This document shows positions 4,707-7,548 of a DNA stretch of 64,000 nucleotides, piece after piece. A program made the translations under genes and the position numbers. This stretch comes from Dehalococcoidia bacterium (GTDB taxonomy: Bacteria; Chloroflexota; Dehalococcoidia; UBA2979), in contig OZ244720.1 of the NCBI GenBank assembly GCA_965219085.1, positions 2,240,001 to 2,304,000 on the forward strand, in the 5' to 3' direction. The notes below the pieces were generated by a model that saw nothing but the letters and a program-made list of their open reading frames with translations, made no database searches and was not told the origin of the DNA. Position 1 is the first letter of the stretch, and the number at the start of each line of letters is the position of its first letter.

Positions 4707-5443
4707 GCTGCCCCCAGGATCCGTCGCCGCTGGCAATGAGTCTAGCTGGGTGCTGAAAAAGGCGCGGCCATCTGGCAGGATAGCGAAGGCGGCGGGGGCG
4801 TAGCCTGGGAGGCAGCCCCGTGCGAGGCGACGCTGAGCGTCAGACCAACATGTTGCTGGCGGTGACGCCGGACTCCTTCATCCCGGACGACCACCCGATC
4901 CGACGCATCAAACCGATCGTCGATGCCGCGCTGCAGCGGCTCTCGCCGCTGTTCGGCACGATGTACGCAACGAGCGGGCGGCCCTCGATCCCGCCCGAGC
5001 ACCTGCTCAAGGCGAGCCTGCTGATCGCGCTCTACTCGGTGCGCAGCGAGCGCCAGTTCTGCGAGCGGCTGCGCTACGACCTGCTCTTCAAGTGGTTCTT
5101 GGACCTCAACATCTCAGACGCGCCGTTCGACGCCTCGAGCTTCTCGAAGAACCGCGAGCGCCTGCTCGCAGCCGATGTCGCGCGCGCCTTCTTCGCCGAG
5201 GTGGTGGCCGAGGCAAAGCGCCGCCGGCTGCTCTCCGCCGAGCACTTCACGGTGGACGGGACGCTGCTCGAGGCCTGGGCCTCGCTCAAGAGCTACCGCC
5301 CGCGCGACGAGCAGGAGCCACCCCTGGGCGGACGCAACCCGGATGTCGACTTCCGCGGGCGGCGGCGCAGCCGCGATACGCATGTTTCTGCGACCGACCC
5401 GGAGGCGCGGCTGTACACGAAGACACCCCAGGACGCTAAGGGG

Positions 5444-6667
5444 TCAAGCAGCGAGGTCCTCGTGGGTGTAACGGTGTCCCCAGGCGGTCGTCTCGTCGTA
5501 GGGCAAGCGGCGCTTCAGGCAGCCATGTAGGTAGCCGACGAGACGGTTGCCGAGGGCGCGGAGCGCCTGGTGGTGGAGGTCGCCCGCGGCGCGCCGCCGA
5601 TCGTAGAACTCGCGGCAGCCGGGGCTGGCCTGCAGGGAGCACAGCGCCCACTGGTCGACTGCGTCGTAGAGGCGCCGGTTGCGGACGAAGCGGGCTTTCA
5701 CGGTGTGCTTGCGGCCGGATGCTACCGTCAGCGGCGACGTGCCGGCGTAGTTCCTGCGGGACTTCGCCGACTCGTAGCGTTCGGGGTCATCCCCGAACTC
5801 GCCAAGCACCCGGGCGCCGAGGACCACGCCGAGACCGGGCAGGGAACGGTAGATACCGGCGTCCGGGTGCTGCTCAAAATGGCTCGCGAGCTCGGCCTCG
5901 AGCTCCTTGATCTGACGGTTGATCTCGCCGATCACCCTCATTGCCGCACTGGTGCTCGCGGCGAATGCCTTGCTCACCGCGGGCGGAGCCTCGAGCTGCG
6001 GTGAGCGCAGCGCGTCGCGGACCTCGGCGGCGCGCCGCTCGATGTTGCGCCGGCGGCCGCCGCGGCGCAGCGCGGAGCGGATCTGGGTGATGCTCAGCCG
6101 CGCCGCCTCGCGCGGGCCAGGCGCTGTCGCCAGCACGCCCACCGCGTCGTCGTGCGCGAGGTCGGGGAAGGCCTCCAGCGCACCCGGAAAGTACTCCCTG
6201 AGCGCGTTGCGCAGCCGGTTGGTCTGGCGGACGCGGTCCCAGATCAACTGCTGGTGGGCGCGGGCGAGGATGCGCACCGCGGCGGCTTCGTCGCTGTCGC
6301 CGGCGACCTCCCGGTGGTTGTGCCGGTCGGTGCGGACGAGGTCGGCGAGCAGCTTCGCGTCGCCGGCGTCGGACTTGGCGCCGCCGACGTGGTGGCGGTC
6401 GCGGTAACGCGACGCCGAGCGCGGGTTGATGGCGTAGACGTGGTAGCCGGCCGCGAGCAGTGCCGCGACCCAGGGGCCGCGGTCCGTCTCGATGCCGACG
6501 ATCACCTCACCCGGCCCTGAGGCGTACCCGGCGACCAGTCCGTGCAGGGCAGTGATGCCCTCCACCCCTTCGGGCAGACGCCGGGCGGCGAGCCGCTCGC
6601 CCGCGTCGTTCATGAGATGGACGTCGTGGTGGTCTTCGGACCAGTCATCGCCCAGGTACAAGGCCAT
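5444..6667 (-). CDS. IS110-family recombinase/transposase
   Basis: N-terminal DEDD RuvC-like motifs (LGDDWSEDHHDV, IGIE, KSDAGDA), SLPGLG, YAGTSP..ASG. Confidence 0.95.
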   Translation of the reverse strand: MALYLGDDWSEDHHDVHLMNDAGERLAARRLPEGVEGITALHGLVAGYASGPGEVIVGIETDRGPWVAALLAAGYHVYAINPRSASRYRDRHHVGGAKSDAGDAKLLADLVRTDRHNHREVAGDSDEAAAVRILARAHQQLIWDRVRQTNRLRNALREYFPGALEAFPDLAHDDAVGVLATAPGPREAARLSITQIRSALRRGGRRRNIERRAAEVRDALRSPQLEAPPAVSKAFAASTSAAMRVIGEINRQIKELEAELASHFEQHPDAGIYRSLPGLGVVLGARVLGEFGDDPERYESAKSRRNYAGTSPLTVASGRKHTVKARFVRNRRLYDAVDQWALCSLQASPGCREFYDRRRAAGDLHHQALRALGNRLVGYLHGCLKRRLPYDETTAWGHRYTHEDLAA

Positions 6668-6689
6668 CGTGTTTCAGTTCCTCTCCCGC

Positions 6690-6900
6690 TTCGCGCTGCT
6701 CGGTGCGACCCGGCGGGTTGGTTCCTGCGACGGCCTAATGGATCAGTGCTCGATGGCACGACACCCCATGAGTGCTGCAGAACAACCCGGAATACCAGCA
6801 GGGGCTCGGTCTTCGTGAAGCGGTCCAGAAGCCGCAGGGATCAGCTGAGAGCTCACCGGCTGGCAGGGTCCAGAACCAGTCTGCCAGAGAACCTCTGGCC
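6690..6900 (-). ncRNA. Putative IS110 bridge RNA (ends approximate)
   Basis: Two internal-loop hairpins whose guide segments match the target site and the donor junction (see findings). Confidence 0.75.
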
Positions 6901-7548
6901 GCTGGTCGGGCCCCATTAGGGGTCGGGGCAGACGGCGAAGCTCAGCTACATGGGCCATCTGCTCACCGAGAACCGTCACGGTCTGGTGCTGGACGTGGAG
7001 TTGGCCGAGGCGAACGGGTACGCCGAGCGCGAGGCGGCGGTCACGATGCTGGAGCGCAGCGTGAGCGGCTGCGGGACGCTGGGCGCCGACCGCGGCTACG
7101 ACACGCGCGGCTTCGTGGCGGCGCTGCGCGCTCGCGGCGTGACGCCGCACGTGGCGCAAAACGACCGCCGCCGCCGCAGCGCCGTGGATGGGCGCACCAC
7201 GCGGCATCGCGGCTACAGGCAGAGTCAGAAGCGGCGCAAGATCGTGGAGCAGGTCTTCGGCTGGATGAAGACCGTGGGCGGCGGGCGCAAGCTGCGCTTC
7301 GTGGGCCGCGAGCGCAACCGCTGTTGGCTGGAGCTCACCGCCGCCGCCTACAACCTCGTGCGCATGGCCACGCTCGAGACCGCCGCGGCGTAGGCGCAGT
7401 GCGCCCTCCGCCCCGCCAGGGAGCCCTCAGAGGCGCCCGGGGGCAGGTCAGGAGGCCACGATCACGAACCCGGAGGCGGCTTCAAGCCGCCTCTCGCCAC
7501 TCCGAGACCCCGGAAGGCGCTTCTTCAGCAGCCTGCTAGCATGGCTCC

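What the first reader, a model, noticed from the sequence alone, without database searches (positions are those of the whole stretch)
6690..6919. IS110 bridge RNA readable by eye: guides match both donor junction and real target
Seen on the - strand: the reconstructed target is cgaccc-CT-tcgtg and the circular donor junction is tggggtgt-CT-aatgg. The non-coding end contains a target loop gatccct-[gcgg..ccgc stem]-tt-cacgaag (6/7 match to gacccCT; exact reverse complement of CTtcgtg; + coordinates 6836-6842 and 6811-6817) and a donor loop tggggtgtc-[gtgc..gcac stem]-tgat-ccattag (matches tggggtgtC; reverse complement of CTaatgg; + coordinates 6760-6768 and 6735-6741). Known: IS110 recombinases use a bispecific bridge RNA around a short core. 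Inference: an intact, reprogrammable high-GC ortholog.
Basis: partly seen in the sequence, partly recalled or inferred. Interest (0 to 1): 0.7.

Follow-up and report, generated by a model that had tools for sequence, protein, structure and literature searches.

The report
Bridge RNA of an IS110 element
This is a mobile DNA element of the IS110 family whose upstream non-coding end encodes the two-loop guide ("bridge") RNA that tells its recombinase where to insert; the reading is correct, but it is one more example of a system described in 2024.

Summary
All four guide strings sit at the stated coordinates on the minus strand, beside the stated short stems.

The element spans 5421-6919 and has 70% G+C. 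It has CT cores at both ends, a 252-nt left end, a 23-nt right end and an intact 407-aa DEDD/Ser recombinase.

The genome holds six near-identical copies. Five lie at one site of an IS5-like element (GACCC-CT-TCGTG). One lies at an unrelated locus (GATCT-CT-TCGTG). Both sites fit the predicted guides at 11 of 12 positions.

Among 80 related loci, the target-loop guides change together with the flanks. In 12 target groups the own-flank match was 4.08/5 and 4.33/5, against 1.89 and 1.63 for other groups' flanks. None of 100,000 permutations reached the observed value. The stems around the loops show compensatory changes. The handshake dinucleotides also fit.

Not shown: that the RNA is made, or that the system recombines. 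Thermodynamic folding alone is no better than shuffled sequence.

Verdict: a genuine IS110-group bridge RNA, a new member of a known kind, of modest interest.

The parts
5421..6919 (-). Whole IS110-group insertion sequence, counted from the left CT core to the right CT core (1,499 nt with both cores, 70% G+C)
   Evidence: The boundaries come from six near-identical genomic copies whose similarity stops at the cores.
6918..6919 (-). Left copy of the CT core dinucleotide
   Evidence: One search located the left end in 81 of 82 entries with a pattern that begins with CT, so the left CT is an input of that search. The changing flank directly upstream is what one search shows.
5421..5422 (-). Right copy of the CT core dinucleotide
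5444..6667 (-). Recombinase gene, 407 aa, with a DEDD RuvC-like domain and a Tnp domain
   Evidence: Pfam DEDD_Tnp_IS110 E 2.7e-37 and Transposase_20 E 4.1e-11. It matches the IS621 transposase 8wt6 at E 5.6e-8. D8, E60, D100, D103 and S317-G318 are present, and the protein is identical in all six copies.
6668..6919 (-). Non-coding left end (252 nt) that encodes the bridge RNA. The structured part runs from about 6905 to 6725.
6876..6905 (-). 5' stem-loop (CCAG/CTGG and GCCAGAG/CTCTGGC)
   Evidence: Predicted in the single-sequence fold. On the 31-sequence alignment, helix 1 is 94.2% paired. Helix 2 is 67.3% paired, with changes on both sides in 5 of its 7 pairs.
6849..6864 (-). Target-binding loop, 5' strand of the outer stem
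   Evidence: RNAalifold predicts it. It is 98.2% paired, and 3 of its 14 pairs change on both sides.
6836..6842 (-). Left target guide (LTG), GATCCCT, same sense as the target top strand including the core
   Evidence: It matches the left flank plus core at 6 of 7 positions in all six copies. The homologous columns covary with the left flanks in relatives.
6820..6835 (-). Inner hairpin of the target-binding loop (GCGG/CCGC)
   Evidence: 100% paired in 31 sequences; 3 of its 4 pairs change on both sides.
6811..6817 (-). Right target guide (RTG), CACGAAG, reverse complement of the core plus right flank
   Evidence: 7 of 7 in all six copies. It covaries with the right flanks in relatives.
6809..6810 (-). 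Handshake dinucleotide of the target loop (AC), complementary to the GT that precedes the core in the donor
   Evidence: AC faces GT in 68 of the 75 rows with a known right end. The other 7 have AT facing GT. The definition is from passages of PMC11208158.
6794..6807 (-). Target-binding loop, 3' strand of the outer stem
6774..6780 (-). Donor-binding loop, 5' strand of the outer stem (CTGC.GC)
   Evidence: 82.8% paired; 1 of its 6 pairs changes on both sides. This is the weakest helix.
6760..6768 (-). Left donor guide (LDG), TGGGGTGTC, same sense as the end of the right end
   Evidence: 9 of 9 up to the C of the core. In L085, L090 and L091 a G-to-A change is present both in the guide and in the right end.
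6746..6759 (-). Inner hairpin of the donor-binding loop (GTGC/GCAC)
   Evidence: Invariant and 100% paired in 31 sequences, so it says nothing by covariation.
6735..6741 (-). Right donor guide (RDG), CCATTAG, reverse complement of the core plus the first bases of the left end
   Evidence: 7 of 7. RNAalifold pairs these columns with the element's first 7 bases in 31 of 31 sequences.
6733..6734 (-). Handshake dinucleotide of the donor loop (GC). Its first base G complements the C that precedes the core in the target.
   Evidence: 72 of 75 rows with G have C at target position 7. Both rows with C (L092, L093) have G there.
6725..6731 (-). Donor-binding loop, 3' strand of the outer stem
5442..5447 (-). 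TTGACC in the right end, overlapping the TGA stop. It is a candidate -35 box of a promoter that forms only in the circular form.
   Evidence: In the computed right-end/left-end junction it lies 18 nt before TCTAAT, which spans the core. TTGAC is kept in 28 of 29 distinct junctions of relatives. This is a hint only: the -10-like hexamer has C where the consensus has A.
4742..5420 (+). First part of the interrupted IS5-like host element (DUF772 transposase N-terminal part); the right flank of the IS110 element
   Evidence: Pfam. Extent is from blastn against the genome.
6920..7539 (+). Second part of the interrupted IS5-like host element (DDE_Tnp_1 domain); the left flank of the IS110 element
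   Evidence: Pfam.

Best explanation
Window 5421-6919 (minus strand) is an intact insertion sequence of the IS110 group. Its 252-nt left end encodes a bridge RNA with a 5' stem-loop, a target-binding loop and a donor-binding loop.

Inferred mechanism, by analogy with IS621:
1. The element excises as a circle that joins its right end to its left end around one CT core.
2. The RNA is bound by the DEDD/Ser recombinase.
3. The donor loop pairs with the circle junction. TGGGGTGTC pairs with the bottom strand and CCATTAG with the top strand.
4. The target loop pairs with a genomic site. GATCCCT pairs with the bottom strand and CACGAAG with the top strand.
5. The recombinase exchanges strands next to the CT core.

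Shown here:
- the anatomy of the element;
- the fit of the guides to six insertions;
- covariation of guides with flanks across relatives;
- compensatory changes in the stems.

Inferred only: transcription, binding by the recombinase, and catalysis.
For: 1. All four guide strings are at the stated places and in the canonical orientation. The orientation rule is taken from passages of PMC11208160.

2. The genome has six copies with only 3 variable columns over the element. Five lie at GACCC-CT-TCGTG in an IS5-like element. One lies at an unrelated locus at GATCT-CT-TCGTG.

3. Of 13 host-element sites found with the 30-nt left flank (up to 5 substitutions), the 5 with the fitting variant are all occupied. 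The 8 with GCTCC-CT-TTGTG (7) or GAACC-CT-TCTTG (1) are all empty.

4. Across 12 target groups of relatives, a group's own guides match its own flanks at 4.08/5 and 4.33/5 non-core positions. Cross pairings give 1.89 and 1.63. None of 100,000 permutations reach the observed sum.

5. The named structure is 90.4% paired on 31 sequences. 13 pairs change on both sides, against 8.6 in shuffles (0 of 500 shuffles as high). Sliding the partners drops pairing to 28-53%.

6. The handshake dinucleotides fit, including a C/G switch in L092 and L093.

7. The recombinase has both Pfam domains, and the IS621 catalytic residues align. The residue numbers for IS621 are from passages of PMC11208158.
Against: - There is no direct evidence that the RNA is made.
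- Single-sequence folding is no more stable than shuffled sequence: z -0.24 for 252 nt and +0.18 for 151 nt.
- Rfam 15 gives no bridge-RNA match in 5300-7100.
- The LTG has one non-Watson-Crick position against every occupied site. The genome has no perfect 12-mer site (0 found).
- One copy each of the two occupied 12-mers is empty elsewhere in the genome.
- The LDG ends in G where the core has T.
- The junction's -10-like hexamer TCTAAT lacks the consensus A at position 2.
- The promoter scan finds 0 sigma-70-like sites in the integrated state.
- The outer stem of the donor loop is only 82.8% paired.
Confidence: 0.92

Rival explanations
1. The guides are real, but the five copies in the IS5-like host are not five independent insertions. 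One insertion was spread by transposition of the composite element, or by gene conversion between host copies. On this reading the genome records only two targeting events.
For: All five occupied host copies share the site variant GACCC/TCGTG, and all eight empty ones lack it. A conversion tract that carries the insert would give the same pattern. Three of the five also share a second nested element at host position about 982-992.
Against: The host DNA of the other four occupied copies is 93.7-98.9% identical to the window's host copy, whereas the IS110 copies differ at only 3 columns of about 1,497. Differences between occupied copies begin within about 25-35 nt of the right junction. One occupied copy (G000:C1:3089012-3090572) carries left-flank variants otherwise seen in the empty copies. 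The sixth copy and the covariation in relatives do not depend on this question.
Confidence: 0.2
2. The internal copies of the end and flank sequences act at the DNA level as protein-binding or synapsis sites. No guide RNA is involved.
For: No transcript was shown here. The donor-loop strings are simply internal repeats of the termini.
Against: The stems that flank the guide segments keep pairing through changes on both sides: 3 of 4 pairs in the inner target hairpin and 3 of 14 in the outer stem. That is the signature of a folded single strand. The family's mechanism was solved as RNA-guided (passages of PMC11208160 and PMC11208158).
Confidence: 0.03
3. The element is a recently silenced relic. 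The sequence features persist, but the system no longer moves in this genome.
For: Two copies carry an extra G inside the right-end run that the LDG reads. One copy has an extra C in the left end. Fitting 12-mers remain empty.
Against: Six copies are near-identical, and all encode the same intact 407-aa protein with the catalytic residues. Their host flanks are far more diverged than the inserts, which points to recent movement.
Confidence: 0.05

Closest known systems
IS621 of Escherichia coli with its bridge RNA (Durrant et al. 2024, PMC11208160; Hiraizumi et al. 2024, PMC11208158; I read passages of both)
   Same: - The recombinase has a DEDD RuvC-like domain and a Tnp domain with a catalytic serine.
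- The core is CT.
- The RNA is encoded in the long left end.
- The order is 5' stem-loop, target loop, donor loop.
- The left guides have the sense of the top strand and the right guides are its reverse complement, each including the core.
- Two handshake bases lie 3' of each right guide.
   Different: - The protein is distant: E 5.6e-8, matched only in two stretches. It is longer, 407 aa against the 326 residues given in the paper's passages.
- The element has 70% G+C.
- The target is a site inside another insertion sequence's transposase gene.
- Expression and activity are untested here.
Other IS110-group elements that insert in short repeated intergenic sequences, such as ISPpu10 (bioRxiv 10.64898/2026.03.19.712850; I saw the listing and the start of the abstract only)
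   Same: The closest relatives of the window's element (L021-L084 groups) sit at a recurring C-rich site of the form ...CACCCCCGCC-CT-CTCCC... in many places of their genomes. This looks like a repeated intergenic target.
   Different: The window's own copies use a different target. Five of the six lie inside a coding region of an IS5-like element.
IS1111 group of the IS110 family, with the guide RNA in the right end (seekRNA/bridge RNA; passages of PMC11208160)
   Same: The same recombinase family and the same RNA-guided logic.
   Different: IS1111 elements have a long right end, a short left end and longer sub-terminal inverted repeats. Here the left end is 252 nt and the right end 23 nt, so the window's element belongs to the IS110 group.

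Membership tests
IS110 family recombinase | N-terminal DEDD RuvC-like domain and C-terminal Tnp domain | tested here: met
   PF01548 E 2.7e-37 over residues 6-161. PF02371 E 4.1e-11 over residues 274-355.
IS110 family recombinase | Catalytic residues equivalent to IS621 D11, E60, D102, D105 and S241 | tested here: met
   The alignment to 8wt6 and the residue read-out give D8, D100, D103 and S317-G318. For E60, HMMER places the IS621 glutamate in a one-residue insertion next to the window's GIETD, so that equivalence is by my own one-residue shift. The IS621 residue numbers are from passages of PMC11208158.
IS110 group (as against IS1111 group) | Long non-coding left end upstream of the gene, short right end, a dinucleotide core at both junctions, no long terminal inverted repeats | tested here: met
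   The left end is 252 nt and the right end 23 nt, with CT at both ends. The criterion is from PMC11208160. I made no separate search for inverted repeats.
Bridge RNA | Two internal loops, each with a 5' guide in top-strand sense and a 3' guide that is the reverse complement, both including the core | tested here: met
   for the strings. for the stems that frame the loops.
Bridge RNA | Target-loop guides covary with the insertion flanks across orthologues | tested here: met
   12 target groups: own flanks 4.08/5 and 4.33/5, cross pairings 1.89 and 1.63, 0 of 100,000 permutations as high.
Bridge RNA | Donor-loop guides match the element's own ends and covary with them | tested here: met
   9 of 9 and 7 of 7 in the window. 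A G-to-A change is shared by the guide and the right end in L085, L090 and L091. The ends are otherwise nearly invariant, so there are few independent events.
Bridge RNA | Handshake guides complementary to positions 6-7 of the non-cognate DNA | tested here: met
   Target loop: AC faces donor GT in 68 of 75 rows. Donor loop: the first base G faces target C7 in 72 of 75 rows, and C faces G7 in 2 of 2. The second base of the donor-loop handshake (C) does not pair with C6 of the window's target. Many rows are near-identical copies.
Bridge RNA | Promoter reconstituted across the right-end/left-end junction of the circle | tested here: inconclusive
   TTGACC, then 18 nt, then TCTAAT across the core. 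TTGAC is kept in 28 of 29 distinct junctions. The second hexamer lacks the consensus A at position 2. The consensus scan could be run only on the integrated state, where it found 0 sites.
Bridge RNA | The RNA is transcribed and bound by the recombinase | not testable with these tools
   Only contigs were available. Contigs from two RNA libraries, 90-95% alike, cover 6727-6920. The tool states that this does not show transcription.
Bridge RNA | Match to a curated covariance model | tested here: inconclusive
   No bridge-RNA family appears among the 6 Rfam 15 matches at E up to 10. I do not know whether Rfam 15 holds such a family.

The most novel reading that the evidence does not exclude
This clade of recombinases (66-86% protein identity) is a natural series of reprogrammed bridge RNAs on one scaffold, with at least a dozen distinct target specificities. 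In this genome the guide has moved from a repeated C-rich intergenic site to the coding region of another insertion sequence's transposase, so one mobile element selectively disables a subfamily of another. It does so with a guide that fits no site in the genome perfectly, and inserts through a G-U wobble at one site and a C-A mismatch at the other. That would make it a natural read-out of mismatch tolerance.
Probability: 0.3. Interest if true: 0.45.

Novelty: new member of a known kind. Interest (0 to 1): 0.3.

Why it matters
It shows that a bridge RNA can be read correctly from raw sequence. It adds a 70% G+C member from a lineage whose closest relatives are in Dehalococcoidia genome bins.

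I found no paper that pairs IS110 with Dehalococcoidia (0 papers). One paper holds both 'bridge RNA' and 'Chloroflexota', but the Chloroflexota passage shown concerns tandem-repeat clusters, not bridge RNAs.

The set of close relatives with a dozen different target guides is a ready-made natural data set on how the target loop is retargeted while the donor loop and the protein stay nearly fixed. Otherwise the biology is that of IS621 and is already known. Large-scale mining has already catalogued thousands of such loci (passages of PMC11208160 and of bioRxiv 10.64898/2026.10.21.760802). I could not see their supplementary tables, so this very element may already be listed there.

Tried and rejected
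Single-sequence folding. The minimum-energy folds pair the guide segments with each other and are no more stable than shuffles (z -0.24 and +0.18). I rejected them as a test and used covariation instead.

Rfam scan. There was no bridge-RNA family among the matches. The only match above its gathering score is Ms_AS-4, on the plus strand inside the recombinase gene.

My first automatic rule for finding the start of the inner stem was out of register in several classes. I dropped it and took the LTG from fixed alignment columns. One class (L065/L066) is still one base out of register there. I left it uncorrected, which works against my reading.

L007, an 83%-identical copy in the same genome, was of no use for the guides. 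Its left end is replaced by other sequence and its gene has lost a base.

Sequencing runs. Only Logan contigs were served.
- RNA-library contigs, 90-95% alike, cover parts of the gene and 6727-6920. They show neither strand, ends nor transcription.
- One DNA contig of X1 joins 5383 to 6924. I read this as an empty host-element copy of the kind also present in the genome, not as excision.
- Loose ends at 6918 in X1 and X4 run into host-element-like sequence. They are too short to interpret.
- No circle junction was seen.

Promoter scan of the integrated element found 0 sites. It could not be run on the circular junction, which exists only as a computed string.

I did not try protein structure prediction, complex prediction or the large protein searches, because the family assignment was already clear.

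Rows dropped:
- One search examined 82 entries: the window copy, the copy at C1:166285 and 80 loci. L078 had no left end.
- lost L043 and L064 for lack of anchors, leaving 79 rows.
- One search gave 22 guide classes.
- One search used 12 of these, one per distinct target group, each with the first locus that had both flanks.
- Left out: 7 classes that share the C-rich target of the group-D representative; the L085-L088 class, where no locus has both flanks; and L092 and L093, where the right end was not found.
- The alignment used 31 of the 36 distinct left ends. L042, L057 and L061 were not chosen, and L043 and L064 are not true left ends.

Full report
OBSERVATION.
- The left junction is GACCC-CT-AATGG, with the CT at 6919-6918. 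The right junction is TGGGGTGT-CT-TCGTG, with the CT at 5422-5421.
- In the 252 nt between the left junction and the ATG at 6667, GATCCCT (6842-6836) is followed by a GCGG/CCGC hairpin, then TT, then CACGAAG (6817-6811).
- Further on, TGGGGTGTC (6768-6760) is followed by a GTGC/GCAC hairpin, then TGAT, then CCATTAG (6741-6735).
- The stated identities and reverse complements are exact.

In 20,000 dinucleotide shuffles of the left end:
- the right target 7-mer appears in 468;
- the right donor 7-mer in 48;
- the left donor 9-mer in 23;
- the left target 7-mer with up to one mismatch in 10,231, so that match means little alone;
- the two target strings in the right order and within 40 nt in 66.
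The combination is not chance.

THE ELEMENT. The gene at 6667-5444 (minus strand) encodes a 407-aa protein with Pfam DEDD_Tnp_IS110 (E 2.7e-37) and Transposase_20 (E 4.1e-11).
- Its only relative among solved structures is the IS621 transposase (8wt6, E 5.6e-8).
- The residues aligned to the IS621 catalytic set are D8, E60, D100, D103 and S317-G318. For E60 I shifted the HMMER alignment by one residue. The IS621 numbering comes from passages of PMC11208158.
- The right end is only 23 nt and the element has 70% G+C.
- A long left end and a short right end are the mark of the IS110 group rather than the IS1111 group (passages of PMC11208160).

The element interrupts an IS5-like insertion sequence on the plus strand. 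Its DUF772 part ends at 5420 and its DDE part resumes at 6920.

COPIES AND TARGETS IN THE SAME GENOME. The genome holds six copies.
- Over the element they differ at three alignment columns only: an extra C in one left end, one silent G/A change, and an extra G in the right-end G-run of two copies.
- All six encode the same protein.
- Five copies lie at the same position of different copies of the IS5-like element, flanked GACCC-CT ... CT-TCGTG.
- The sixth, at C1:166285, lies in unrelated DNA flanked GATCT-CT ... CT-TCGTG.
- So the right flank fits the right target guide at 7 of 7 in all six copies, and the left flank fits the left target guide at 6 of 7 in all six.
- The odd position would be a G-U wobble at the host-element site and a C-A mismatch at the other site.

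A search with the 30-nt left flank (up to 5 substitutions) found 13 host-element sites.
- The 5 with the fitting variant are all occupied.
- The 7 with GCTCC-CT-TTGTG and the 1 with GAACC-CT-TCTTG are all empty.

The genome has no perfect 12-mer site. It has 17 one-mismatch sites with an intact core that are empty, including one copy each of the two occupied 12-mers. It has 200 two-mismatch sites, none occupied.

The host DNA of the other four occupied copies is 93.7-98.9% identical to the window's host copy. That is far more diverged than the inserts, so I read the five as separate recent insertions. Spread by gene conversion is not excluded and is kept as a rival about the number of events.

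RELATIVES. A scan of one genome per species found 251 stretches that encode a relative. The best 80 were kept, at 66-86% protein identity. By record title, 73 are Dehalococcoidia genome bins, 4 are Smaragdicoccus niigatensis and 3 are Actinomycetota bins.
- In 81 of 82 entries examined, a left end of the same kind was located by a pattern that begins with CT. The flank upstream of it changes from group to group.
- The donor loop and both termini are nearly invariant.
- The two guide segments of the target loop differ between groups, and they differ in step with the flanks.
- Examples: L082, L090 and L067 match their left flank at 8 of 8. L091 matches at 9 of 9.

For a test I took one locus from each of 12 distinct target groups and scored only the five non-core positions on each side.
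- Own guide against own flank: 4.08 and 4.33 of 5.
- Guide against the flanks of other groups: 1.89 and 1.63.
- None of 100,000 permutations reached the observed total.
- Results that go against the reading: L060/L061 match only 1 of 5 on the left (the guide seems one base short), L017 and L041 have a right flank that fits at 3 of 5, and the C-rich groups match at 3-4 of 5 on the left.

In the donor loop, L085, L090 and L091 carry a G-to-A change in the left donor guide, and the same change in their right end.

STRUCTURE. Folding the window's sequence alone is uninformative. On an alignment of 31 distinct left ends, RNAalifold recovers three things:
- the outer and inner stems of the target loop;
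- the inner stem of the donor loop;
- pairing of the right donor guide with the element's own first seven bases in 31 of 31 sequences, which is simply the guide-donor complementarity.

For a structure that I named from the window's sequence (5' stem-loop, target-loop outer and inner stems, donor-loop outer and inner stems), one search gives:
- 90.4% of cells paired, against 86.4% in shuffles (0 of 500 shuffles as high);
- 13 pairs with changes on both sides, against 8.6 in shuffles (0 of 500);
- 28-53% paired when the partners are slid by 1-3 columns.
- The inner target hairpin is 100% paired, with 3 of 4 pairs compensatory.
- The outer target stem is 98.2% paired, with 3 of 14 pairs compensatory.
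- The inner donor hairpin never varies.
- The outer donor stem is the weakest, at 82.8%.

The structure was derived from one of the aligned sequences, which favours it in the sliding control. The shuffle control ignores relatedness.

HANDSHAKE BASES AND PROMOTER. In IS621 the two bases 3' of each right guide pair with positions 6-7 of the other DNA after strand exchange (passages of PMC11208158).
- Here the target loop has AC (6810-6809), complementary to the GT before the donor core. This holds in 68 of 75 rows; the other 7 have AT.
- The donor loop has G (6734), facing the C before the target core. 72 of 75 rows with G have C there and 3 have T.
- The two rows with C (L092, L093, one genome) have G there.
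- These rows include many near-identical copies, so the switch counts as roughly one event.

In the computed circular junction, TTGACC (5447-5442, overlapping the TGA stop) lies 18 nt before TCTAAT, which spans the core. TTGAC is kept in 28 of 29 distinct junctions. This resembles the junction promoter described for the family. However, the second hexamer lacks the consensus A at position 2, so I treat it as a hint. No sigma-70-like promoter or intrinsic terminator is found in the integrated state.

EXPRESSION. Only assembled contigs of public runs could be laid. Contigs from two RNA libraries, 90-95% alike, cover 6727-6920 and parts of the gene. They differ from the window exactly in the left target guide. 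The tool warns that this does not show transcription. I draw nothing from it.

COMPARISON AND VERDICT. In every respect testable from sequence, this is a bridge RNA of the IS110 group that works like that of IS621. It differs in three ways:
- a distant, longer recombinase;
- high G+C;
- a target inside another insertion sequence, where its closest relatives use a recurring C-rich site.

It is a new member of a known kind. What remains open is transcription, activity and experimental reprogrammability. Interest is modest, because bridge RNAs have been predicted in most IS110 elements (85.7% in ISfinder; passage of PMC11208160) and mined in thousands of loci since.

Noticed in passing
G000:C1:1799940-1801468 (mostly L004:1-1380); also C1:1204282-1205813, 3274983-3276511, 1971385-1973824 and 340395-341901: A second, different IS110-family element sits at another fixed site (host position about 982-992) of several copies of the same IS5-like host, including three that also carry the window's element. 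It is about 1.53 kb, with a 338-aa protein that has both Pfam domains, and it has 11 near-full-length copies in the genome. Its right end looks longer than its left end. The IS5-like element is therefore hit by two RNA-guided elements at two sites.
   Followed up: partly
G000:C1:1803541-1805177 and 3090780-3092146: Two further insertions of other repeated elements lie in occupied copies of the IS5-like host. One is 1,636 bp with 4 near-full copies. The other is 1,366 bp with 9 near-full copies. They sit at host positions about 1551-1555 and 1364-1371, so the nesting is up to three deep.
   Followed up: partly
window 5762-5843 (+): Rfam family Ms_AS-4 (an actinobacterial antisense sRNA) matches above its gathering score: 63.9 bits against 50, E 5e-9. 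The match is antisense to the conserved Tnp-domain part of the recombinase gene. The alignment has many non-standard pairs, so it may only reflect conserved coding sequence.
   Followed up: no
L007:1480-2700 (G000:C1:893433-894622): A decayed relative of the element, 83% identical over the gene. It has lost a base in the gene. Its left end is replaced by a tandem duplication of sequence that looks like the right end of the second IS110-family element. It lies next to an empty copy of the IS5-like host.
   Followed up: partly
Right end of the copies at G000:C1:1202604-1204165 and 3276631-3278192; left end of the copy at 1801588-1803149: Two copies have an extra G in the G-run of the right end that the left donor guide reads. 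One copy has an extra C between the 5' stem-loop and the target loop. These could impair the affected copies.
   Followed up: no
L021-L084 (many loci): The closest relatives sit again and again at a C-rich site of the form CCCTCACCCCCGCC-CT-CTCCCGC... in their genomes. This suggests a dispersed repeat as their natural target.
   Followed up: no
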